Shown: positions 11,236 through 46,405 of the stretch, piece after piece
How the letters are laid out: each line of letters begins with the position of its first letter
How positions within the stretch are numbered: position 1 is the stretch's first letter
Assembly: GCA_049997795.1 (NCBI GenBank)
Contig: JBEKVT010000002.1
Span: forward strand, 1,664-65,663
Length of the DNA: 64,000 bases
DNA from: Minisyncoccia bacterium
GTDB lineage: Bacteria > Patescibacteriota > Minisyncoccia > Phycocordibacterales > PALSA-1337
Direction: 5' to 3'
The notes under the pieces: generated by a model
Told to the model about the DNA's origin: nothing
Seen by the model: only the letters and a program-made list of their open reading frames with translations
Database searches by the model: none
Program-made: the position numbers and the translations under genes

Positions 11236-11287
11236 ACGTTAGGCCGCGAGGGTGATTCAGTCCGAGTCCAAACCAGCCAGCTAGCAC

Positions 11288-11695
11288 ATGAATGCAGATG
11301 CGCTTAAAGGAGTAACCATTAAAGATGCCGGAGTGAAAGGCCGCGGAATCTTTGCTCTGCGAGATTTCAAGAAAGGAGAGCTGGTGTTAGGTTGGAATAA
11401 AGAAAATAGATTTCTTTCTGAAGAGGAAATTTCAGATCTGCCAGAGGGAGAAAAAAAGTATGTTGCCTTGTGCAACGGGAAATATCTTCTAATCTCAGAA
11501 CCAGAACGTTACATGAATCATTCTTGTGATCCTAATACTATAAATGAAAACGGTCTTGACTACGCTCTTAGAGATATCAAGAAAGGCGAGGAGATTACAG
11601 GAGATTATGATCGGGGAGGTTCATTGTTAGGATTTGAATGTAAATGCGACAGTAAAAATTGCAGAAAGGTAGTTCGTCCCAGGAAGCTTAATTGA
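11288..11695 (+). CDS. SET-domain protein (putative protein-lysine methyltransferase)
   Basis: 135 aa; NHSCDPN, GEEITGDY and post-SET Cys cluster CKCDSKNCRK; low-GC codon usage. Confidence 0.75.
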   Translation: MNADALKGVTIKDAGVKGRGIFALRDFKKGELVLGWNKENRFLSEEEISDLPEGEKKYVALCNGKYLLISEPERYMNHSCDPNTINENGLDYALRDIKKGEEITGDYDRGGSLLGFECKCDSKNCRKVVRPRKLN

Positions 11696-11715
11696 GTTGT
11701 TTCAGGTCAATTATA

Positions 11716-11746
11716 GTTCCGACATCGTACCACGCAGCCAGCCAAT
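11716..11746 (+). repeat. Direct-repeat motif S1: GTTCCGACATCGTACCACGCAGCCAGCCAAT
   Basis: Near-identical to S2 (12317-12348); related to S3/S4 at 30108/30602. Confidence 0.6.
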
Positions 11747-11749
11747 AAA

Positions 11750-12313
11750 ATGAACAATTATATCTTTGGTTATGGAAGTCTCGTGAACAAAGAAAGTCGC
11801 GGACTTACCGGTAAATCAGCACTGATCGGCCCAGTACGAGTGCGCGGAATAAGACGCGGGTGGAATGTCCAAGTCACTGATAAAACAGTACTTGGCGCCA
11901 CATAAGAGCCGGGCGCTATTTGTAATGGAGTAATCGTGTCTGTGCCAGAGCAGGAATTAGCAAGGTACGATGAAAGGGAGATCCCATCGAAATATAAAAG
12001 AATTGAATTACCAGTGGCGAATGTAAATCTTCTCAATAATAAAAGTTCGAGTGGAACCTTCTGGACATATGTCGCGATTGATCCAAAAGATCCTGACGCT
12101 GAACATCCCATCCCTCAGTCATATATAGATGTAGTACTCACCGGTTTTTTGGATTTTGGGACTGACTTTGCAAAAGAGTTCGTCGATTCTACGGAGGGAT
12201 GGAAATATATTGTGAATGATCGAGATAACCCACTGTACTCGAGAGCATTAAAGAATGTTGAACGTAGAGCTGAAATTGACACCCTCCTTTCCAAGGCAAG
12301 TCTAGTCTCCTAG
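11750..12313 (+). pseudogene. Gamma-glutamyl cyclotransferase-like (GGCT/AIG2/ChaC-like) gene interrupted by in-frame TAA at 11903-11905
   Basis: N-terminal MNNYIFGYGSLVNKESRGL (YGSL motif); downstream same-frame segment ELARYDEREIPSKYKRIELPV fits the LDxxE...YxRxxVxV GGCT pattern; ATG 11750 and track ORF 11936..12313 are in the same frame, separated by TAA. Confidence 0.6.
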
Positions 12314-12316
12314 CAA

Positions 12317-12348
12317 GGTTCCAACATCGTACCACGCAGCCAGCCGAT
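12317..12348 (+). repeat. Direct-repeat motif S2: GGTTCCAACATCGTACCACGCAGCCAGCCGAT
   Basis: Begins 4 nt after stop of the GGCT-like gene. Confidence 0.6.
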
Positions 12349-26580: not shown

Positions 26581-26609
26581 TTGATTCCGGCGTATTTTTG
26601 TAGTAATAT
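26581..26609 (+). promoter_or_regulatory. Candidate clpB promoter TTGATT-17-TAATAT, 13 nt before ATG
   Basis: Seen in sequence; no CIRCE element recognised. Confidence 0.4.
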
Positions 26610-26622
26610 ATGGCCGAAATCG

Positions 26623-29325
26623 ATGCCTCCTATCAATAAACTCACCACAAAGGCCAGGGAAGCCCTTAAAAAGGCCCACGAATTGGCCATAGAACGCGGC
26701 CAGAACCACGTCAACCCCGTGCACCTTTTATGCGCTCTCATCCTCCAGGAAGAGAGCATGGTGGCTTCGATCCTGGACAAGCTGGAAGTCGACACGCCGA
26801 TGCTCTCGGACATCGTCCTGGAGCACATCGAGGCGCCCGAAGGCTCGAGCGTCCTGTCGCCGTCATATCAGATCTACCTCACCCCGGACCTGGCTCAGAT
26901 CCTGGACAATTCGCTCCGAGTGGCCGGACTCTTGAAGGATGAGTTCATCTCCACCGAGCACCTCTTCCTGTCGATCTTCGACATCCCGTGCACGGCCCGT
27001 GACATCCTCGGCCGTTTCAAGATAGAGCGCGACGCCGTGACCAAGGTCATTGAAGAACTCAAGGCCAACCCGCCTTCCCGCGACACCGAGCCGAAGAAAT
27101 TCCGCACTCTCTACAAATACGCCAGATCGCTCACTAGGCTTGCCCGCGAGAACAAGCTCGATCCGGTCATAGGCCGCGATAACGAGATCATGCGCATCAT
27201 CCAAATCCTGTCGCGCCGGACCAAGAACAACCCGATCCTGATCGGCGAGGCCGGCGTGGGCAAGACCGCCATCGTGGAAGGCTTGGCTCTTCGCATGTCC
27301 CAAGGCGACGTGCCGGAATCGATCAAAGACAAGGAGCTGGTATCGCTCGACCTCGGCCAATTGATCGCCGGCACCAAGTACCGCGGCGAATTCGAAGAAC
27401 GCCTGAAGAACATCCTGAAGGAAGTCGAACGAGCCGAAGGCAAGATCATCCTCTTCGTCGACGAGATCCACACCCTGGTCGGCGCCGGCGCCTCCGAGGG
27501 TTCGATGGACGCCTCCAACATGCTGAAGCCGGCCCTCTCCCGGGGTGAACTCCGGGCCATCGGCGCCACCACCATAAAGGAATACCAGAAATACATCGAG
27601 CGCGACCCGGCCCTGACCCGCCGCTTCCAGCCAGTCTATGTCTCCGAGCCCTCCGTCGAAGATGCCATCTCCATCCTGCGCGGCCTCAAGGAGAAATACG
27701 AGATGTTCCACGGCGTACGGATCACCGACGACGCCATCGTGGCGGCCGTCAACCTGGCCAGCCGCTACATCACCGATCGCTTCCTGCCGGACAAAGTTGT
27801 CGACCTCGTGGATGAAGCCGCCTCCTCGCTCAGGATCTCGCTCGAGAACATGCCGCCCAAGCTGGAAGAGACCAGGAGGAAGATCATGCGGCTCGGGATA
27901 GAGCGCGAAGCCCTGAAGAAAGAGACGGAGAAAGCCGCCAGGATGCGCATGACGAAGATCGATCACGAAATAGCGGATCTCAAAGAATCGACTTCGGAGC
28001 TTGAGCTCAAATGGAAGAACGAGAAGGAGACCATCACCGACCTGAAGCGCATCAAGAGGGAACTAGAGGCCATGCGCATCGAGGCCGACATGGCCGAAGC
28101 CAGGTCCGACCTCTCGAAGGCCGCTGAATTGCGCTACGGACGCATCCCGGCTCTGGAAAAAGACCTCGAATCAAAGAATCGCCGCCTGAAGAAGCTGCAG
28201 TCCTCGAGGCGCATCCTGAAGGAAGAGATCACCGCCGAAGACATCGCCGGCGTGGTCTCTCGCTGGACCGGCATCCCGGTCTCGCGGATGCTGGAGTCCG
28301 AGGCCTCGAAGTTGACGCGCATGGAGATCGAATTGAAGAAGCGCATCGTGGGCCAGGACGAGGCCGTCACGAAGATATCCGACACGGTCAGGCGCTCCAG
28401 AGCCGGCATCGCCGACCCGGCCCGGCCGATCGGCTCGTTCATCTTCCTGGGCCCGACCGGCGTCGGCAAGACGGAGCTCACCAAGGCCCTGGCCGAATTC
28501 CTGTTCAACGACGAAAAGGCCCTGATCCGGGTGGACATGTCCGAATTCATGGAGAAGCACAGTGTCTCGAAGTTGATCGGCGCCCCTCCGGGCTACGTGG
28601 GCTACGACGAGGCCGGCAGCCTGACCGAGGCAGTCCGCCACCGTCCGTACGCGGTCATCCTCTTCGACGAGATAGAGAAAGCCCATCCGGAAGTCTTCAA
28701 CATCCTCTTGCAGGTCCTCGACAACGGCCGGCTGACCGACTCCAAGGGCCGGGTGGTCAACTTCAGGAACACGGTCATCATCATGACCTCGAACATCGGC
28801 GCCCAACACATCGAGCGCATGGAGAAGCTCGGCTTCTCGAAGGACCAAGGCAACCGCGACCGCGACAATTACGCCGAGGCCAAGGAGAAGATCAACGCCG
28901 CCCTCAAGGATTATTTCCGTCCCGAATTCCTGAACCGCATAGACGACATCATCATCTTCGACATCCTGTCGCCGGAAGCGGTCAGGGAGATAGTCAGGAT
29001 CCAAGTCGGGGAAGTGACGAAGCGCCTCGCCGAGAAGTCAGTCGAGCTCATCCTCTCGCCGGCCGCTCTGGATTATCTGGCCAAGGAGGGCTACAACCCG
29101 CAGTACGGCGCCCGGCCCTTGAAGCGCCTGATCCAATCGAGGATACTCACCCCGGTGGCGAACCTGCTTATCGGCCAGGAAGTGGCGAAGGGCGGTCAGG
29201 TCCTGGTCGGCGTGAAAGACGTCGCCGGCAAGGAGGGCGTCAAGGAATTCACTTTCGAAGTCAAGAAGAAGCACAAAGGCGAGAGCCCGATCATCGCGCG
29301 CGAAACGGCGGCAGAGAAACGCTAG
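26623..29325 (+). CDS. clpB: Chaperone ClpB (AAA+ disaggregase with long middle coiled-coil)
   Basis: 900 aa; two Walker A ([20 protein letters not shown]), N-domain repeats, M-domain coiled coil. Confidence 0.9.
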
Positions 29326-29374
29326 ATTGCGGATTCTCCGAAATCGTATTAAAATCAACGCGTTCCCTAAAAAC

Positions 29375-29458
29375 GCGCAGGTGGCAGAGTGGTCAATTGC
29401 AATGGACTGTAAATCCATCGCCCTATGGGCTACGGGGGTTCAAATCCCTCCCTGCGCA
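29375..29458 (+). tRNA. tRNA-Tyr (anticodon GTA), long variable arm
   Basis: GCGCAGGTGGCAGAGTGG...ACTGTAAATCC...GGGGGTTCAAATCCCTCCCTGCGCA. Confidence 0.85.
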
Positions 29459-29475
29459 CAAATCTTTTGTGATAT

Positions 29476-29507
29476 GGTAAAGAAAAAAGCCCGCGTCGAT
29501 GGCGCGG
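29476..29507 (-). terminator. Intrinsic terminator for minus-strand gene 29521-29937 (GCCCGCG...CGCGGGC hairpin + U-run)
   Basis: Seen in sequence. Confidence 0.5.
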
Positions 29508-29520
29508 GCTCACAAAACAT

Positions 29521-29937
29521 TCACGGATAGCCCAGTTGCTGGAAAGCCGCGTAGAAAGCGGCTGCGTCTCTGGCTGATTTATCTGCCGCTTCTTGGGTGG
29601 CTGTCCATCGCCTGTCGATCCTGACGACATCTCCGACCTTGATAACTGCGCTTAGGGGAGCATAGGTTGACATTGAATGAAGGCGGACACTGACCTCATC
29701 TCCTGTGGGGAAAGAAGTCTTACCGTCCTTGTCGCAGTCGAGGTAACGGATCATGATAAAGCTGTTGCCCACTACATTATTGTCGACCGCTACCACCTTG
29801 CCGTAGGACACAGGATTCAGTTGACCACGAGATCCTTTGTATATCACTACGCCGGCTAAGACAGCCAAGACAACAACCCCGAGATAGAGGAATACAAGGG
29901 GAGGATATTCCTTGAAAAATAGAAATAGTTTTTTCAT
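29521..29937 (-). CDS. Hypothetical membrane-anchored protein (138 aa), island cargo
   Basis: N-terminal TM LVFLYLGVVVLAVLAGVVI then ~100-aa domain; lower GC than flanks. Confidence 0.45.
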   Translation of the reverse strand: MKKLFLFFKEYPPLVFLYLGVVVLAVLAGVVIYKGSRGQLNPVSYGKVVAVDNNVVGNSFIMIRYLDCDKDGKTSFPTGDEVSVRLHSMSTYAPLSAVIKVGDVVRIDRRWTATQEAADKSARDAAAFYAAFQQLGYP

Positions 29938-30107
29938 AGCTGAAGTTTGGTTGAAAGACGCGACAGAATTGTCTCGCCTTCGTTCCCAAACTCCAACTCA
30001 TTTCAATGATCCTAACTACCTAACATTATATAGCATTTAATATCTATTTGTCAAGCTCTATTAATTCCATCGGAACGCTGTTTTAGTGACTTAAGTTCAT
30101 TAAAAAG

Positions 30108-30140
30108 GTTCTAACTTCGTCCCACGCAGCGCACAAATCC
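30108..30140 (+). repeat. Direct-repeat motif S3: GGTTCTAACTTCGTCCCACGCAGCGCACAAATC
   Basis: 17/20 nt identity to tRNA-Tyr 3' end plus trailer; T-loop-like GGTTC start. Confidence 0.6.
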
Positions 30141-30226
30141 TTCCAACAACAATCAGTAATACAAAAAGCCGCTCGGAATGGTACGAGCGGCCGATAACAC
30201 ATCATTGACGAGATTCGATCGTGACA

Positions 30227-30490
30227 TTATCCGCCGTCCTCGACAAGTTCTTCCGGCTTGACCGGTTCTCCATATCTGGGAGCTTTCCAGTCTGGCTGAC
30301 AGCTTGGACAATGCAGATGCCCAACTTGTATCACCTTGCCGCTCCCCGAAAGCGGAAATGGTCCATCGTGGAGTGAACGGCCTGTCTGGGTGCACAGAAT
30401 GTCGACTCCCGTCTTTTTGCAAGTCCAACCATTGGGTCCGTGAACAGCGTGTTCCTGGAGCCATTTTGCATCTGTTGCGAGAATAGTCAC
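30227..30490 (-). CDS. Small Cys-containing hypothetical protein (87 aa; CxxxxxxxxC ... CPSC), island cargo
   Basis: Flanked by S3 and S4; followed by hairpin GCCGCTCGGAATGGTACGAGCGGC. Confidence 0.4.
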   Translation of the reverse strand: MTILATDAKWLQEHAVHGPNGWTCKKTGVDILCTQTGRSLHDGPFPLSGSGKVIQVGHLHCPSCQPDWKAPRYGEPVKPEELVEDGG

Positions 30491-30601
30491 GGCTTACCTT
30501 TCTATATTTGAATGACCACCGAGATAAGTATCCGGGACTGACATTACTACTTAAACCACTACTGTCAAGATAATGATTTAACGGCTCAGACTCATCAAAG
30601 A

Positions 30602-30635
30602 GGTTTCAACTTCATCCTACGCAGCGCACGATTCA
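30602..30635 (+). repeat. Direct-repeat motif S4: GGTTTCAACTTCATCCTACGCAGCGCACGATTCA, abutting alr stop
   Basis: Near-identical to S3. Confidence 0.6.
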
Positions 30636-31781
30636 ATCGACCACGACCCGCTTGAGGTGTGCCGGGATCTTCACGGCGACTTCGTAAGTGATGGTGCCGC
30701 AGAGCTTGGCCACGGCCTTGATGGAATTGAGATCGACGACCTCGCGGCTGAAAACGACGGCTTGCATGCCTATCTTGGAGTCAGGGACCTTCGAGACGTC
30801 TATGGTGGCGATATTCATGCTGACCCGGCCGACGATGGGACAGAGGATGCGATCCGGACCGACCTGGATGAAGCCGCTCCCGGAAAGCCGGCGGTCGAGA
30901 CCTTCGAAATAGCCGACGGGGATGGTGGCTATCGTCATGTCCTTGTCGGCCCTGAAGGTATTACCGTAGCCGACGGTCTCTCCGGCCGTGAGCTTCTTGA
31001 CGCCGGTTATGATCGTCCTCATCTCCAATACTGGCCGGAGCTTCAGGCTTGAATACAGGGCGGAATTCTCGGACAAGCCGTATAGGCCGATGCCGAGCCG
31101 GATGACGTTGCCGTTTATGTCCTTGGAGAAGCGCGAGCCGTCGGTGGCGGCGGCGTGGAAGTATTTGAGGCGCGGAAATGAGGCCTTGAACTGATTGACT
31201 ATCCGATTCCAGGCGCTTATCTGGCTCTCGGTGAATGATCCATCGGGGTTATCGGCGCTCGAGAAGTGGGTGCAGATCCCTTCCAGGACGATGCAAGGAT
31301 TTGCTTTGATTACATCGATCGTTGTCGGGATCTCCTCGGGCAATATGCCTTGCCGGCGCATGCCCGTGTCGATCTTTAGATGGATAGGGATGTAATGCCG
31401 GGCGCCCATCAATCCCTCGAGAGTTTCCAAGCTGGTCACGGCGAAAGCCGTCTTCTTCAAGCTGGATTTTCTGATGGTCTCGGGCCTGGTGTAGCCGATG
31501 ACGAGCAGGGGAGCCCTGAATCGGCGGGCCCGCAGAGCCACGGCTTCGAAATACGAATCGACGATGAAGAAAGGCATATCGTCTCGAGATTTGAGGACGC
31601 TGGCGACTTCGGCTAGGCCGTGGCCGTAGGCGTTGGACTTCAAGACAGAGGCGATGCCCGCGCCGGGCGCCAGTTTCTTGAATTCATCCAGATTTTCGAG
31701 CAGGCGGCTCTTCGATATCTCGACCGTGATGAGCGGCTCGTAGGGGAACCGGCGGCGCGAAAGCCAGGTCAGGAGTCTCAT
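30633..31781 (-). CDS. alr: Alanine racemase
   Basis: 382 aa; VLKSNAYGHG PLP-lysine motif. Confidence 0.9.
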   Translation of the reverse strand: MRLLTWLSRRRFPYEPLITVEISKSRLLENLDEFKKLAPGAGIASVLKSNAYGHGLAEVASVLKSRDDMPFFIVDSYFEAVALRARRFRAPLLVIGYTRPETIRKSSLKKTAFAVTSLETLEGLMGARHYIPIHLKIDTGMRRQGILPEEIPTTIDVIKANPCIVLEGICTHFSSADNPDGSFTESQISAWNRIVNQFKASFPRLKYFHAAATDGSRFSKDINGNVIRLGIGLYGLSENSALYSSLKLRPVLEMRTIITGVKKLTAGETVGYGNTFRADKDMTIATIPVGYFEGLDRRLSGSGFIQVGPDRILCPIVGRVSMNIATIDVSKVPDSKIGMQAVVFSREVVDLNSIKAVAKLCGTITYEVAVKIPAHLKRVVVD

Positions 31782-31832
31782 GTTTGCATTATGTCTTAGC
31801 CTGGGTTATATTACAACCTCACTCGAATCATC

Positions 31833-31988
31833 ATGTCGCAGGACCAACTCATCCAATTGCGAAACAAGGAGACCGGCGAGGTCTATTGGACGCGCAAGAA
31901 CAAGAAGAAGGTGGAGCGCAAGATCGAGCTCAAGAAATATTCGGCCAGGCTCCGTAAGCACGTCGTCTTCAAAGAATCCAAGAAATAA
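31833..31988 (+). CDS. rpmG: 50S ribosomal protein L33
   Basis: MSQDQLIQLRNKETGEVYWTRKNKKKVERKIELKKYSARLRKHVVFKESKK; below track length cutoff. Confidence 0.8.
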   Translation: MSQDQLIQLRNKETGEVYWTRKNKKKVERKIELKKYSARLRKHVVFKESKK

Positions 31989-31990
31989 TC

Positions 31991-32105
31991 GCAGGAAAGG
32001 AAGTGCTTCTGAAGAACTCCTCTTTACATCCCGCTTTAGGCTGAAGGCAAGGGTCATCGGACGTATCCCGCTGGGAATGTTCTTCAGAAGCACTTCCTTT
32101 CCTGC
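31991..32105. repeat. Palindromic intergenic element, family copy d (forward), 27-bp perfect arms
   Basis: GCAGGAAAGGAAGTGCTTCTGAAGAAC ... GTTCTTCAGAAGCACTTCCTTTCCTGC; core ends ATCCCGCTGGGAATGTTC. Confidence 0.7.
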
Positions 32106-32128
32106 TATACTTCTCGTGTTCCTTAGAT

Positions 32129-32199
32129 GGGCGATTAGTTAAGTGGCATAACTGCGGTCTCCAAAACCGCTGTCGGGGGTTCGATTCCCTCATCGCCCG
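32129..32199 (+). tRNA. tRNA-Trp (anticodon CCA)
   Basis: GGGCGATTAGTTAAGTGGCATAACTGCGGTCTCCAAAACCGC...GGGGGTTCGATTCCCTCATCGCCCG. Confidence 0.8.
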
Positions 32200-32204
32200 C
32201 AATA

Positions 32205-32231
32205 AAAAGAGCGGACAGAAGTCCGCTCCAT
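32205..32231 (-). terminator. Terminator for minus-strand PRTase gene (GAGCGGAC...GTCCGCTC hairpin + U-run on minus strand)
   Basis: Seen in sequence. Confidence 0.45.
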
Positions 32232-32238
32232 AGTGACG

Positions 32239-32940
32239 CTATCCGGCGTCAGAAACCGGTTCTTTGCGCGACGTCAGAGCGTTTAGACCCCGTCGCTCCA
32301 GGAATTCGCGGCCCTTGCCGACATGCGGGTTGACGGGAATCCCTTGTTTGCACAGAGGGCACTCGGATTCAGGCCAGTGGGCGGAACTCAACTTGACGTT
32401 CGCCAGCGAGACCAGCTCCGGCACGTCGCCAATGTCTGCGGCCGTGATACCGCCGGAATTCACCAGAGCCGCGGCGCCGATGACATGGCCGCCCCTCCGT
32501 CTCACGGCTTCGACGACCGTTCTGACGATATTGCGGCCGTCGGACAGGATATCCTCGACCACCAACACCTGCTTATTCCGGATCAACTTGTCATAATCGA
32601 GCCCGGGAATGAACAGATCTTGATCGATTTTTTCGGTGTGCATGGCTAAAACCTGGTGCTTCGTAAGCTCGCTCAAGTGGAATGCTGTCCACTGCGCGAG
32701 GATAGAGCCGTCGGTGCCATGGCCGATGACTACCCAGACGTTATCGCCCATGAACTTCTTGGCGATCTCCATGCACAGGCTGGAGGTTTGGATGGGGTGC
32801 GAGTATATCGCATCCCTGTTAACGTAAGAGTTTTCATGCAGGCGAGGGGAACTGACGATGTGATCGTCGATGATCATGGCGTTGAGCCATTTGAGGGTAG
32901 CGATCACCCTCTGTTCCAATTCAGGATCGTGTAGCTTCAT
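32239..32940 (-). CDS. Type I phosphoribosyltransferase (OPRT/PyrE-like)
   Basis: VLVVEDILSDGRNIVRTV PRPP-binding motif; start taken at MKLHD. Confidence 0.6.
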   Translation of the reverse strand: MKLHDPELEQRVIATLKWLNAMIIDDHIVSSPRLHENSYVNRDAIYSHPIQTSSLCMEIAKKFMGDNVWVVIGHGTDGSILAQWTAFHLSELTKHQVLAMHTEKIDQDLFIPGLDYDKLIRNKQVLVVEDILSDGRNIVRTVVEAVRRRGGHVIGAAALVNSGGITAADIGDVPELVSLANVKLSSAHWPESECPLCKQGIPVNPHVGKGREFLERRGLNALTSRKEPVSDAG

Positions 32941-33181
32941 GATTCCGTCCCTTTCAAGGCAAATACTGACGTTGGACTGACAAAGTAGCTGTTCGGTTGC
33001 CATACTACCGCCCGGCGCCTGTTTGTCAACGCGTTGACTTTCGGCACGCCCGGAAATTGAAAGACACACAGACCAATCATCTTGCATTAGTCATAGATAT
33101 ATGTTATTATATGCGCCGGTTTCAGTCTTTGACAGAACAAACTCACACAGCAAACTCAGCCAAGAAAAAGAGAGGATACCC

Positions 33182-33751
33182 ATGAAAGCAGGCAATTTGT
33201 TGCTGGCTCTCGGTGCTCTGGTCACGGCGCTCATGCTGGTCGGATGCACGGAGGAACATCACGTGCGCCGTCATCACAAGAAGCATTATGGTCTCATCTA
33301 TCACGGGACCGACGGCCACTATTACACCAGGAGCCACGAAGGCAACCGGTTTCTTTGCTGGAGACTGGTCAACGACACCTTGTCCGGCCTGTCTCCCGAC
33401 ATGGCCGACTGGAGCAAGAGCTCGTCGATCTCCGGTAACTGGGTGCGGACGTCTACGCTCCCGACCGGGCTCGTGCCGACCTCCAAGGTCGTGGTCGAGG
33501 AAGAAGGCAAACCCACCTCGGAGATCGAAGAAGAGTCCCCGGCCACGGAGCAGGAAACGGTCACAGAATCGACCACCGAATCTCAAGCCGAAAGCGCCGA
33601 AGCCGGTTCGGATGATTCCGGAAGCGATTCATCGTCAAGCGGAGACGGCGACAGTTCCGGCGGAGACGCCGGGGGCGGTGGCGATAGCGGTGGCGGCGGA
33701 GACAGCGGCGGTGGCGACGGTGGTGGTGATGGCGGCGGAGGCGGGGATTGA
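33182..33751 (+). CDS. Lipoprotein with His-rich segment and extreme Gly/Asp/Ser-rich repetitive C-terminus
   Basis: Lipobox LMLVGC; SD AAGAGAGGA; tail ...GDSGGGGDSGGGDGGGDGGGGGD. Confidence 0.55.
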   Translation: MKAGNLLLALGALVTALMLVGCTEEHHVRRHHKKHYGLIYHGTDGHYYTRSHEGNRFLCWRLVNDTLSGLSPDMADWSKSSSISGNWVRTSTLPTGLVPTSKVVVEEEGKPTSEIEEESPATEQETVTESTTESQAESAEAGSDDSGSDSSSSGDGDSSGGDAGGGGDSGGGGDSGGGDGGGDGGGGGD

Positions 33752-46230: not shown

Positions 46231-46301
46231 TGCGGGATCGTCTAATGGTAGGACACGAGCCTTTGAAGCTCGCTATCTTGGTTCGACTCCAAGTCCCGCA
46301 G
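46231..46301 (+). tRNA. tRNA-Gln (anticodon TTG)
   Basis: TGCGGGATCGTCTAATGGTAGGACACGAGCCTTTGAAGCTCG...GGTTCGACTCCAAGTCCCGCAG. Confidence 0.8.
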
Positions 46302-46405
46302 CAGACAAAAAATTGTTTATCCTAGACAAGCCAAACGTTCCGTGGTAGATTCTCCACGATTTCGAACGTTCTTTTCCCAACCATCCAACCAACCCAGTCC
46401 GAATC

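What the first reader, a model, noticed from the sequence alone, without database searches (positions are those of the whole stretch)
29459..30635. Island 2: two small cargo genes between tRNA-Tyr and alr, each followed by a tRNA-Tyr-like repeat
Ordered on the + strand: tRNA-Tyr (29375-29458), a terminator, gene 29521-29937 (membrane-anchored 138 aa), an AT-rich spacer, S3, a hairpin, gene 30227-30490 (87 aa, 4 Cys: CKKTGVDILC...CPSC), S4, then the alr stop. GC is lower than in the flanks by eye. S4 directly abuts the alr stop codon. This is a compact tRNA-associated genomic islet with unknown cargo, possibly a membrane or zinc-binding pair with immunity, toxin or defence function.
Basis: partly seen in the sequence, partly recalled or inferred. 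Interest (0 to 1): 0.65.

Follow-up and report, generated by a model that had tools for sequence, protein, structure and literature searches.

The report
Serine-integrase cassette remnants at tRNA-Tyr
Two small foreign genes wedged between a tRNA gene and a housekeeping gene of a tiny uncultured bacterium are most likely leftovers of mobile elements that a serine integrase inserts into the ends of tRNA genes, and the same footprints mark strings of single-gene cassettes in related bacteria.

Summary
tRNA-Tyr, two small minus-strand genes and two 70-nt direct repeats (S3, S4) lie at the stated coordinates in a low-GC 1.17-kb insert that relatives lack. S3 and S4 are not simple copies of the tRNA-Tyr end. 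Each is a conserved 24-nt arm followed by GCAC, the last four bases of tRNA-Tyr. The same arm occurs in other Patescibacteria contigs. There it is the right end of 6-9 kb elements that encode a large serine recombinase (LSR) and a rolling-circle Rep, inserted in the 3' end of tRNA-Gln (junction CAGC) or tRNA-Tyr (junction GCAC). One such element sits at the same clpB-tRNA-Tyr site. Many LSR homologues end in a peptide (..AVWDDIRT) that is the antisense translation of the arm; S3 still reads CAAWDEVRT. The arm is 5 nt longer than the matching tRNA arm, as published for serine-integrase attP versus attB. Elsewhere the arms separate up to six single-gene cassettes downstream of tRNA-Gln. The 87-aa gene recurs at 77% identity as a cassette in such an array. 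The 138-aa gene has no homologue anywhere. No recombinase lies in the window. The cargo functions stay unknown, and nothing supports a toxin, immunity or defence pair.

The parts
29375..29459 (+). tRNA-Tyr(GTA), the attachment target. The attB-like arm GGTTCAAATCCCTCCCTGC is 29437-29455 and the junction tetranucleotide GCAC is 29456-29459.
   Evidence: ARAGORN and Rfam; coordinates. In L135 and L137 the same tRNA end carries a full LSR element.
29454..29464 (+). 11-nt GCGCACAAATC, repeated exactly at 30129-30139 in S3. The crossover is inferred to lie within this identity block at the proximal junction.
29487..29511 (-). Rho-independent terminator of the 138-aa gene.
29521..29937 (-). Cassette 1 cargo: 138-aa protein with no homologue, an N-terminal transmembrane helix and a C-terminal domain that could not be modelled.
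30025..30054 (-). Promoter of the 138-aa gene, TTGACA-18-TATAAT, 12 of 12 matches.
30107..30134 (+). S3 core: 24-nt attP-type arm GGTTCTAACTTCGTCCCACGCAGC plus GCAC. Its antisense reads CAAWDEVRT. The extended repeat is 30079-30148.
   Evidence: (E 1.7e-6 with a model built only from other contigs)
30167..30192 (-). Rho-independent terminator of the 87-aa gene.
30227..30490 (-). Cassette 2 cargo: 87-aa Cys/His-rich protein. Invariant residues include C24, H41, H58, H60, C61 and C64. It is not called in the public annotation of the source contig.
30541..30568 (-). Promoter of the 87-aa gene, TTGACA-16-TAATGT, conserved in the homologous cassettes of L112, L115 and L116.
30602..30629 (+). S4 core: decayed arm GGTTTCAACTTCATCCTACGCAGC plus GCAC. 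Its antisense reads CAA*DEVET. The extended repeat is 30574-30643. It ends 3 nt before the alr stop codon at 30633-30635.
   Evidence: (E 0.14 alone)
11259..11281 (+). Island 1 anchor: a 23-nt remnant of a tRNA-Gln 3' end (AGTCCGAGTCCAAACCAGC+CAGC) directly after gyrA, with attB-type spacing of 19 nt.
   Evidence: Read directly from the sequence against the tRNA-Gln sequences.
11288..11742 (+). Island 1 cassette: SET-domain gene (11288-11695) followed by site S1 (arm 11715-11738 plus CAGC).
   Evidence: (E 1.5e-9)
11750..12344 (+). Island 1 cassette: gene interrupted by an in-frame stop (11750-12313; looks like a gamma-glutamylcyclotransferase by eye, no Pfam hit for its C-terminal part), followed by site S2 (arm 12317-12340 plus CAGC).
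   Evidence: (E 4.7e-11)

Best explanation
The islet is a two-unit array of integrase-less cassettes left at the 3' end of tRNA-Tyr by a family of small integrative elements of Patescibacteria. These elements encode a large serine recombinase (LSR) and a rolling-circle Rep protein.

In the free element, attP lies across the 3' end of the LSR gene. One half of it is a conserved 24-nt 'P arm', whose antisense strand encodes the LSR C-terminal peptide (..A-[A/V]-W-D-D-I-R-T). Integration recombines attP with the last bases of a tRNA gene. The tRNA stays intact. The LSR gene then reads into the tRNA on the antisense strand. The P arm ends up at the far end of the insert, fused to the tRNA's terminal tetranucleotide: CAGC for tRNA-Gln, GCAC for tRNA-Tyr.

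S3 and S4 are two such far-end junctions in tandem. They record at least two insertion events, the newer one next to the tRNA. The LSR and Rep cores are gone. They were lost either by excision that used an inner P arm or by deletion. What remains is two self-contained transcription units (promoter, gene, terminator).

Shown by the data: the sites, their family, the physical link between LSR genes and P arms, the tRNA specificity, and the empty site in relatives.

Inferred: that the LSR catalyses the reaction, the exact crossover position, how the cores were lost, and what the cargo does. My best guess for the cargo is one membrane-anchored protein whose C-terminal domain lies outside the cytoplasm, and one small cytosolic Cys/His metal-binding protein. 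Both guesses have low confidence.
For: 1. The insert is foreign. GC is 0.47 against 0.58. Relatives have alr and tRNA-Tyr about 18-45 nt apart (L019, L022, L031).

2. The arms belong to a family found outside this genome.
- A 23-nt degenerate pattern hits S1-S4 in the window and 13 metagenome contigs.
- A model built from 9 other contigs alone finds S2, S1 and S3 at E 5e-11, 1.5e-9 and 1.7e-6.

3. The arms separate cassettes downstream of tRNA-Gln.
- L104/L119 has six sites, L109 four, L103 two, L112 three.
- The cargo is diverse: NUDIX, HD, SET, HAD-like, ClpP-like, unknown.

4. Strain pair L118 and L119 share flanks at 97-99% identity. Between the same tRNA-Gln and the same distal site, one strain has the cassette array. 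The other has a 6.3-kb element starting with a 504-aa LSR and ending in P arm + CCGCCAGCAAT, which is the tRNA's own end.

5. All further LSR loci examined show the same layout: the LSR on the strand opposite the tRNA or P arm, and a P arm 3-9 kb away in tRNA orientation. These are L105, L120, L122 and L123.

6. Of the 120 best LSR homologues, 64 end in the antisense translation of a tRNA (attL state). Another 18 end in ..WDDIRT.., the antisense translation of the P arm (attP state). In that frame S3 reads CAAWDEVRT and S4 reads CAA*DEVET.

7. A prediction was made and met. LSRs with Cys at the junction codon (TGC, antisense of GCA) should sit in tRNA-Tyr.
- P0062 (L135) overlaps tRNA-Tyr directly beside clpB, the same chromosomal site as here. 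Its element ends in CGTTCGGATATCGTCCCAAGCAGA|GCAC.
- P0090 (L137) also overlaps tRNA-Tyr and ends in ..GGC|GCAC.

8. The GGTTC motif starts 19 nt before the junction in every tRNA and 24 nt before it in every site. This equals the 5-bp inward shift of the zinc-ribbon-domain motif in attB relative to attP, described for serine integrases (PMC3783163).

9. The 87-aa gene is itself a cassette in a tRNA-Gln array. P0003 is 77% identical and has the same layout of site, promoter, coding sequence, terminator, site. That array's site tails match that host's tRNA end.

10. The distal site is the more decayed one both here (S4) and in L119.
Against: - No LSR or other recombinase lies in the 64-kb window. 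The rest of the 657-kb contig could not be read.
- S4 alone is weak against the external model (E 0.14).
- The sequences to the right of the junctions are not conserved, and no P/P' dyad symmetry is evident. The cassettes therefore do not carry an obvious complete attP.
- The central dinucleotide was not located.
- Nothing shows recombination directly. All ten same-species contigs have the identical layout, so no polymorphism was seen.
- Other relatives have different, apparently ordinary genes in the alr to tRNA-Tyr gap without any arms, for example L021 with murE-like and FemAB-like genes. Not all variation at this locus is due to these elements.
Confidence: 0.8

Rival explanations
1. Integron-like capture: each unit is a self-contained mini-element. 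A serine integrase encoded elsewhere excises it as a circle and inserts it one at a time at the tRNA end. The array is then an active cassette platform, not debris.
For: - Cassettes are compact and complete, and each carries its own promoter and terminator.
- The same cassette recurs between different neighbours in different genomes. The 87-aa gene is in L112 and in the window. A kinase-like gene is in L101 and L104.
- Arrays reach six units.
- Strains of one species differ completely in array content.
Against: - The left ends of the cassettes are not conserved beyond the junction tetranucleotide. Only 5 of 24 show AATTGAC. A circularised cassette would therefore lack a recognisable P' half-site.
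- Serine integrases normally need both attP halves, and they do not recombine attL-type or attR-type sites without a directionality factor (PMC3783163).
- No free circular cassette was seen.
Confidence: 0.12
2. Remnants of classical tyrosine-integrase prophages or islands that insert in tRNA genes and duplicate the tRNA 3' end.
For: - The location at a tRNA 3' end and the direct repeats that share the tRNA's terminal bases fit the general pattern.
- Tandem integrations with degenerate remnants are described for tycheposons, most of which use tyrosine recombinases (10.1101/2020.12.28.424599).
Against: - Only 4-11 nt of the tRNA are duplicated. The rest of the repeat is a conserved element arm.
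- The recombinase linked to the arm in every locus examined is an LSR.
- The arm is the antisense of the LSR's own C-terminal coding sequence.
- Tyrosine-recombinase probes found nothing in the window or the array loci.
Confidence: 0.03
3. Local duplication of the tRNA 3' end together with downstream DNA, as in the tRNA-linked repeats after E. coli tyrT. No mobile element would be involved.
For: The repeats follow a tRNA-Tyr gene and share its last bases. S3 and S4 resemble each other over 70 nt.
Against: - The arms match sites in unrelated contigs of 35-49% GC better than they match tRNA-Tyr.
- The two units carry unrelated genes.
- The same arm type occurs after gyrA in this window with a different tail.
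Confidence: 0.02
4. The repeat is a shared cis-regulatory element (operator, UP element or leader) of the two minus-strand genes.
For: On the minus strand each repeat lies about 35-55 nt upstream of the -35 box of its gene.
Against: In other arrays the same site, in the same orientation relative to the tRNA, lies just after the stop codon of the preceding gene. Its other end faces the next promoter. Its position relative to genes therefore follows cassette borders, not promoters. There is no Rfam hit.
Confidence: 0.03

Closest known systems
Serine-integrase (large serine recombinase) attP x attB integration, e.g. Listeria phage A118/LI integrase, phiC31, Bxb1
   Same: - The recombinase has the Resolvase, Recombinase and Zn_ribbon_recom domains.
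- The sites are short and the identical core is very short.
- The attP arm is 5 nt longer than the attB arm, with the same distal motif.
- The products are hybrid attL and attR sites.
   Different: - The target is the extreme 3' end of tRNA genes.
- attP overlaps the integrase's own stop-proximal codons, so the protein's C-terminus changes on integration.
- No clear P/P' symmetry was seen.
- The elements are 6-9 kb with a rolling-circle Rep rather than phage genomes.
- The window has only attR-type footprints and no integrase.
Tycheposons and tRNA-linked genomic islands of Prochlorococcus (10.1101/2020.12.28.424599)
   Same: Both involve integration beside tRNA genes. Repeated integrations push older elements outward. 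Degenerate remnants and partial-tRNA repeats are scattered through the island. Both occur in streamlined genomes, and a minority of tycheposons use LSRs.
   Different: - Here the repeat is mostly an element-encoded arm, with only 4-11 nt of tRNA sequence.
- The host is Patescibacteria.
- The units are single genes with their own promoter and terminator.
- Most tycheposons use tyrosine recombinases.
SCC elements of staphylococci (Ccr serine recombinases at the 3' end of rlmH/orfX). From my own knowledge, not tested here.
   Same: A serine recombinase inserts elements at the 3' end of a conserved gene without inactivating it. Tandem composite arrays are bounded by direct repeats. These include units that lack the recombinase genes and are thought to be moved by Ccr supplied in trans.
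   Different: - The target is a protein-coding gene, not a tRNA.
- The elements are much larger.
- The recombinase gene does not overlap attP.
Integron cassette arrays
   Same: Arrays of single, functionally unrelated genes are separated by a recurring recombination site and anchored at one fixed site. The same cassette occurs in different arrays.
   Different: - There is no IntI tyrosine recombinase.
- The site is a conserved, asymmetric 24-nt sequence, not a folded attC palindrome.
- The cassettes carry their own promoters and terminators and occur in either orientation.
Accretion and cis-mobilisable elements (CIMEs) at ICE attachment sites, e.g. ICESt1/ICESt3. From my own knowledge.
   Same: Integrase-less units flanked by att sites sit in tandem with, or are left behind by, an integrase-carrying element. 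In principle they can be moved when the integrase uses an alternative att site.
   Different: Those systems use tyrosine integrases and much larger units. Mobilisation is not shown here.

Membership tests
Attachment-site footprint (attR-type P-B' junction) of a large-serine-recombinase element | A cognate LSR gene is physically linked to the same site type in intact elements. | tested here: met
   L118, L105, L122, L123, L120, L135 and L137 all show the layout LSR, then 3-9 kb, then a P arm in tRNA orientation. No LSR lies in the window itself.
Attachment-site footprint (attR-type P-B' junction) of a large-serine-recombinase element | The attP half-site is about 5 bp longer than the attB half-site, with the distal (ZD) motif shifted accordingly. 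| tested here: met
   GGTTC lies 19 nt from the junction in 5 tRNA-Gln genes and in tRNA-Tyr. It lies 24 nt from the junction in all 8 sites measured, including S3 and S4. The rule is from PMC3783163.
Attachment-site footprint (attR-type P-B' junction) of a large-serine-recombinase element | A short core is identical in attB, attL and attR. | tested here: met
   GCGCAC is shared by the tRNA-Tyr end, S3 and S4, and the tRNA and S3 share 11 nt. The tetranucleotide is GCAC in L135 and L137 and CAGC in the Gln-type sites.
Attachment-site footprint (attR-type P-B' junction) of a large-serine-recombinase element | Imperfect dyad symmetry of attP (P versus P'). | tested here: inconclusive
   No inverted copy of the arm was found to the right of the junctions. 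The attP of a free element was not reconstructed at the DNA level.
Attachment-site footprint (attR-type P-B' junction) of a large-serine-recombinase element | The LSR catalyses recombination between these sites. | not testable with these tools
   This needs an in vivo or in vitro recombination assay.
Integron (IntI plus attI plus attC cassettes) | An IntI-type tyrosine recombinase lies next to the array. | tested here: not met
   XerD-type probes found nothing in the window or the array loci. Genes upstream of the arrays are housekeeping genes.
Integron (IntI plus attI plus attC cassettes) | attC sites are imperfect palindromes (R''-L''...L'-R') conserved in structure rather than sequence. | tested here: not met
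   The sites are conserved in primary sequence over 24 nt. No reverse-complement partner was found on either strand.
Integron (IntI plus attI plus attC cassettes) | Cassettes are mostly promoterless, in one orientation, and expressed from Pc. | tested here: not met
   Both window cassettes have their own promoter and terminator and are antisense to the tRNA.
tRNA-targeting tyrosine-integrase islands / tycheposons | A direct repeat of a partial tRNA flanks the element beside a tRNA gene, with tandem accretion and remnants. | tested here: met
   Only the last 4-11 nt of the tRNA are repeated. Tandem units and a more decayed distal site were seen.
tRNA-targeting tyrosine-integrase islands / tycheposons | A tyrosine recombinase acts as the integrase. 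| tested here: not met
   Only LSRs are linked to the arms. No tyrosine recombinase was detected.
tRNA-linked tandem repeats (E. coli tyrT type) | The repeat unit starts with an exact copy of the tRNA 3' segment and arises by local duplication. | tested here: not met
   The tRNA against S4 is not significant. The tRNA against S3 gives 23 nt with 4 mismatches. The arms match external contigs better.
Zinc-ribbon / treble-clef type small metal-binding protein (87-aa cargo) | Four conserved metal ligands arranged as two knuckles. | tested here: inconclusive
   C24, C61-x2-C64 and several His residues are invariant, but C33 is not. The model is confident (pLDDT 86.8) but has no Foldseek match in the PDB or BFVD and no Pfam or NCBIfam hit.

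The most novel reading that the evidence does not exclude
Patescibacteria have an integron-like gene-capture platform that runs on a serine integrase instead of IntI.

- tRNA-Gln and tRNA-Tyr 3' ends act as the fixed docking sites.
- Single self-expressed genes, each ending in the 24-nt P arm, are the cassettes.
- Visiting 6-9 kb elements carrying the LSR and Rep genes pick up and drop off cassettes by choosing among alternative P arms when they excise.

The window's two islets would be small, currently recombinase-less arrays of this platform. The integrase's attP lies inside its own coding end, so its C-terminus switches between the free and integrated states. That switch could itself control directionality.
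Probability: 0.3. Interest if true: 0.8.

Novelty: new variant of a known kind. Interest (0 to 1): 0.6.

Why it matters
Patescibacteria (CPR) have very small genomes, and how they acquire accessory genes is poorly understood.

- **A route for gene gain.** This locus, read together with its relatives, points to a concrete route. A large family of serine integrases has more than 2000 homologues at E <= 1e-30. Those examined insert small replicon-like elements into the ends of tRNA-Gln or tRNA-Tyr. They leave strings of single accessory genes marked by a recognisable 24-nt footprint.
- **A search key.** The footprint can be used to find recently acquired genes in these genomes. In the window it flags two islets.
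- **A built-in readout.** The junction codon of each integrase (Leu or Cys) predicts its tRNA target. This was tested here and held.
- **Possible tools.** tRNA-specific serine integrases with defined short sites may also interest genome engineers.

No paper describing these sites or elements was found in the searchable library. That library is incomplete.

Tried and rejected
- **Rfam, window 29000-32400, permissive threshold.** Only the two tRNAs scored; there is no structured RNA in the repeats.
- **Integron attC reading.** No palindromic partner and no IntI.
- **Promoter or operator reading of the repeat.** Rejected because the site's position follows cassette borders in either gene orientation.
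- **dif/Xer-type site.** No two-arm symmetry by eye, and several sites occur per contig.
- **Protein family searches for both cargo proteins (Pfam, NCBIfam, PADLOC).** Nothing above noise.
- **138-aa protein.** It has no homologue in the 5.8-billion-protein search or in the exhaustive HMMER scan of 1.84 billion representatives. The single-sequence AlphaFold model is unusable beyond the transmembrane helix (pLDDT 51.6).
- **Site model against the relatives' alr-tRNA-Tyr loci.** No hits.
- **Viral contigs.** The site pattern is absent. There are no close LSR relatives, only distant ones at 42% identity or less, several of which abut tRNA-Gly or tRNA-Thr.
- **Three of the 13 metagenome pattern hits (L099, L106, L111).** Judged to be chance. 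They have odd tails, two lie inside unrelated ORFs, and by my own rough estimate a database of that size should give a few chance matches.
Full report
**1. What is in the window**

The window comes from a Minisyncoccia (Patescibacteria/CPR) genome bin, on a 657-kb contig. The features, in plus-strand order, are:

- clpB, 26581-29325, plus strand.
- tRNA-Tyr(GTA), 29375-29459.
- A minus-strand terminator, 29487-29511.
- A 138-aa ORF, 29521-29937, minus strand.
- Its promoter, a 12/12 consensus TTGACA-18-TATAAT at 30054..30025.
- Repeat S3.
- A second minus-strand terminator, 30167-30192.
- An 87-aa ORF, 30227-30490, minus strand, GTG start.
- Its promoter, TTGACA-16-TAATGT at 30568..30541.
- Repeat S4.
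- The stop codon of alr (gene 30633-31781, minus strand).

S3 and S4 are a real 70-nt direct repeat: 71% identity overall and 84% over a 38-nt core. No shuffle out of 500 reached the observed score. The 1173-nt insert has 47% GC, against 58-60% for its flanks and the whole window.

One correction matters: both cargo genes are on the minus strand, so each forms its own unit of promoter, gene and terminator.

**2. The insert is foreign**

Relatives with alr at 45-64% identity keep the order tRNA-Trp, rpmG, alr, tRNA-Tyr, clpB. The gap between alr and tRNA-Tyr varies widely:

| Locus | Gap |
|---|---|
| L019 | about 18 nt |
| L022 | about 26 nt |
| L031 | about 45 nt |
| L021 | 3.5 kb |

- The 138-aa protein has no homologue other than itself, even in an exhaustive scan of 1.84 billion representatives.
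- The 87-aa protein has seven homologues at 58-79% identity, all in unrelated neighbourhoods.

**3. What S3 and S4 are**

Similarity to tRNA-Tyr itself is modest. For S3 it is 23 nt with an exact 11-mer, GCGCACAAATC, that runs past the tRNA end. For S4 alone it is not significant.

A profile of S3 and S4 found two more copies in the window, S1 and S2. They follow a SET-domain gene and an interrupted gene just downstream of gyrA.

The four copies share GGTTCYAACWTCGTMCCACGCAGC. After that come island-specific tails: CAGC in island 1 and GCAC in island 2.

A scan of metagenome contigs with the degenerate 23-mer returned 13 contigs of 29-49% GC.

- Ten carry the extended consensus (A)AGGTTCCAACATCGTACCACGCAGCCAGC. 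One of these ten, L110, is the window's own island 1.
- Three are probably chance matches.

A model built from the nine other contigs alone recovers the window copies at these E-values:

| Copy | E-value |
|---|---|
| S2 | 5e-11 |
| S1 | 1.5e-9 |
| S3 | 1.7e-6 |
| S4 | 0.14 |

**4. Arrays**

In several contigs the site recurs downstream of a tRNA-Gln gene, in the tRNA's orientation, with one or two genes between successive copies:

- six sites in L104/L119
- four in L109
- two in L103
- one each in L102 and L107

The cargo is diverse: NUDIX, HD, HAD-like, ClpP-like, unknowns.

The closest characterised homologue of the 87-aa gene is P0003, at 77% identity. It is itself a cassette in a tRNA-Gln array (L112). 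It is antisense to the tRNA, as in the window, and has the same order: site, promoter, 5' UTR, coding sequence, terminator, site. In that array the site tails (..CAACAAA) match that host's tRNA-Gln end (..GGCAACCA).

The tail of the site therefore tracks the host tRNA, while the 24-nt arm is conserved across hosts.

**5. The recombinase**

L118 and L119 are strain variants with 97-99% identical flanks.

- Between the same tRNA-Gln and the same decayed distal site, L119 has the cassette array.
- L118 instead has a 6.3-kb element. It begins with a 504-aa large serine recombinase (Resolvase, Recombinase and Zn_ribbon_recom domains). The gene's last codons run antisense into the tRNA.
- That element ends in TTGGTTCTAATGTCGTCCCAGA + CCGCCAGCAAT, which is a P arm plus the tRNA's own terminal bases.

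L105, L120, L122 and L123 show the same layout. Usually a REP_ORF2-G2P rolling-circle Rep gene lies beside the LSR gene. The LSR family is large: more than 2000 proteins at E <= 1e-30. The few that carry names are named as Patescibacteria.

**6. The arm is the coding end of the integrase gene**

Among the 120 best LSR homologues:

- 64 end in the antisense translation of a tRNA (..LL-A-DRESNPD.. or ..DLDSNQD..SYH). This is the integrated state.
- 18 end in ..LL-A-VWDDIRT... This is exactly the antisense translation of the P arm. For example, GGTTCGAATATCGTCCCAGACGGC|CAGC gives LAVWDDIRT. This is the attP state.

In the same frame the window sites read:

| Site | Antisense reading |
|---|---|
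| S1, S2 | LAAWYDVGT |
| S3 | CAAWDEVRT |
| S4 | CAA*DEVET |

This explains why the arm is so conserved across hosts. It also places the crossover at or beside the junction tetranucleotide.

**7. A prediction tested**

The junction codon is Leu (CTG, antisense of CAG) for tRNA-Gln. S3 and S4 have Cys (TGC, antisense of GCA). I predicted that the few LSRs with Cys at that position sit in tRNA-Tyr. Both that could be looked up do.

- P0062 (L135/L136) overlaps tRNA-Tyr(GTA) directly beside clpB, the same chromosomal site as the window islet. Its roughly 7.4-kb element ends in CGTTCGGATATCGTCCCAAGCAGA|GCAC.
- P0090 (L137/L138) overlaps tRNA-Tyr. Its roughly 8.9-kb element ends in CGTTCTAATCTCGTTCCAGACGGC|GCAC.

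**8. Geometry**

GGTTC starts 19 nt before the junction in all tRNA-Gln genes examined and in tRNA-Tyr. It starts 24 nt before the junction in every site, including S3 and S4. Rutherford et al. showed that the zinc-ribbon-domain motif of a serine integrase is shifted 5 bp toward the centre in attB relative to attP (PMC3783163). The match supports reading the tRNA end as attB and the arm as the P half of attP.

**9. Mechanism proposed**

Shown by the data:
- The sites and their family.
- The physical link between LSR genes and P arms.
- The two states of the LSR C-terminus.
- tRNA-specific junctions.
- Occupied versus cassette-only alleles of one locus.

Inferred:
- The LSR recombines attP (P arm, core, P') with the tRNA end.
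- Repeated events add units next to the tRNA. This fits the distal site being the more decayed one in both the window and L119.
- The LSR and Rep cores are lost by excision using an inner P arm or by deletion, which leaves cargo plus arm.

Whether cassettes can move again, by alternative arm choice or as mini-circles, is open. The sequences to the right of the junctions are not conserved. That argues against each cassette carrying a full attP.

**10. Cargo**

- **The 138-aa protein.** It has a confidently predicted N-terminal helix (residues 2-38) and a C-terminal part that could not be modelled.
- **The 87-aa family.** Invariant residues include W10, H14, W22, C24, the motif RSLHDG, SGSG, and HLHC-x2-C. 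The model is confident (pLDDT 86.8), but no structural or family match was found. A Cys3-His metal site is plausible but untested.
- **The pair.** Nothing links the two genes functionally, and nothing points to toxin, immunity or defence. Intact elements of the family do carry defence-type genes: an OLD-family nuclease, an R-M system with AIPR, and CBASS-like genes nearby.

**11. Limits**

- No recombinase lies in the 64-kb window, and the rest of the genome could not be read.
- No population polymorphism was seen in ten same-species contigs.
- No recombination was observed.
- The central dinucleotide and the P' half-site are undefined.
- Literature searches found no description of these sites or elements. 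The library is partial.

**12. Verdict**

The finding is real, and its 'tRNA-associated islet' reading is right. The repeats are attP-derived footprints of tRNA-Tyr-targeting serine-integrase elements, not tRNA copies. The cargo functions remain unknown.

The kind of feature is known: tRNA-linked integrative elements with tandem remnants. The serine-integrase version is, as far as I could find, a new variant. Its distinguishing traits are an attP inside the integrase's own coding end and arrays of single-gene cassettes in Patescibacteria.

Noticed in passing
window 11236-12344: A second islet directly after gyrA. It holds a SET-domain gene and an interrupted gene (in-frame stop; looks like a gamma-glutamylcyclotransferase by eye), each followed by a canonical tRNA-Gln-type P arm + CAGC. 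It is anchored on a 23-nt remnant of a tRNA-Gln 3' end (11259-11281). GC is 0.43.
   Followed up: yes
window 46231-46302 and downstream to about 48500: The window's intact tRNA-Gln(TTG) has no P arm downstream, so its attB looks empty. Yet Gln-type arms occur at the gyrA remnant site.
   Followed up: partly
window 31988-32017 / 32079-32108: A 30-nt inverted repeat, 97% complementary, with a 61-nt loop, between rpmG and tRNA-Trp.
   Followed up: no
window 32239-33751: The region after tRNA-Trp holds a phosphoribosyltransferase-like gene on the minus strand and a Gly/Asp/Ser-rich 216-aa ORF. It is variable among relatives: the tRNA-Trp to mgsA gap is 1.7 kb here, 0.84 kb in L020 and 4.3 kb in L022. 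No P-arm hit was found there.
   Followed up: partly
L105 2132-2244; L120 19454-19573; L123 19853-19967: LOOT RNA (Rfam RF03000, 70-73 bits) lies in three independent loci that contain LSR elements. It may be a component of these elements.
   Followed up: no
L001 317-438, 2002-2120, 5888-6005: Three genes, including a homologue of the 87-aa protein, share a leader of about 100 nt. It has a perfect palindrome (AAGAACGTGGTATTAATACCACGTTCTT) over the promoter and a conserved hairpin-containing 5' UTR. There is no Rfam hit at gathering threshold.
   Followed up: no
L030, about 40-100 nt downstream of tRNA-Tyr (c[2162-2246]): An inverted copy of the tRNA-Tyr 3' end (..gtgcgtag...ggagggattcgaa) lies after a terminator hairpin.
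   Followed up: no
window 30227-30490 (L009 4448-4708): The 87-aa gene is not called in the public annotation of the source contig, although it has seven homologues under clear purifying constraint.
   Followed up: yes
P0020-P0139 (LSR homologues): The integrase's last 10-25 residues are encoded by whatever lies across the att site. The protein therefore has different C-termini in the free state (..AVWDDIRT..) and the integrated state (..ADRESNPD..). The junction codon (Leu, Cys or Arg) appears to report the target tRNA. The Arg class was not examined.
   Followed up: partly
L127, L128, L130, L132, L133 (IMG/VR contigs): Distant LSR relatives (24-32% identity) end about 100-300 nt before a tRNA-Gly or tRNA-Thr gene on the opposite strand. 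tRNA-end targeting may be a wider trait of this LSR clade.
   Followed up: no
L118 7034-8851; L137 2622-7901; L120 12028-13868; L123 12028-13537: Intact elements or their immediate neighbours carry defence-type genes: an OLD-family ATPase/TOPRIM nuclease, NgoPII restriction-modification plus AIPR, and SMODS/CD-NTase with Cap15.
   Followed up: no
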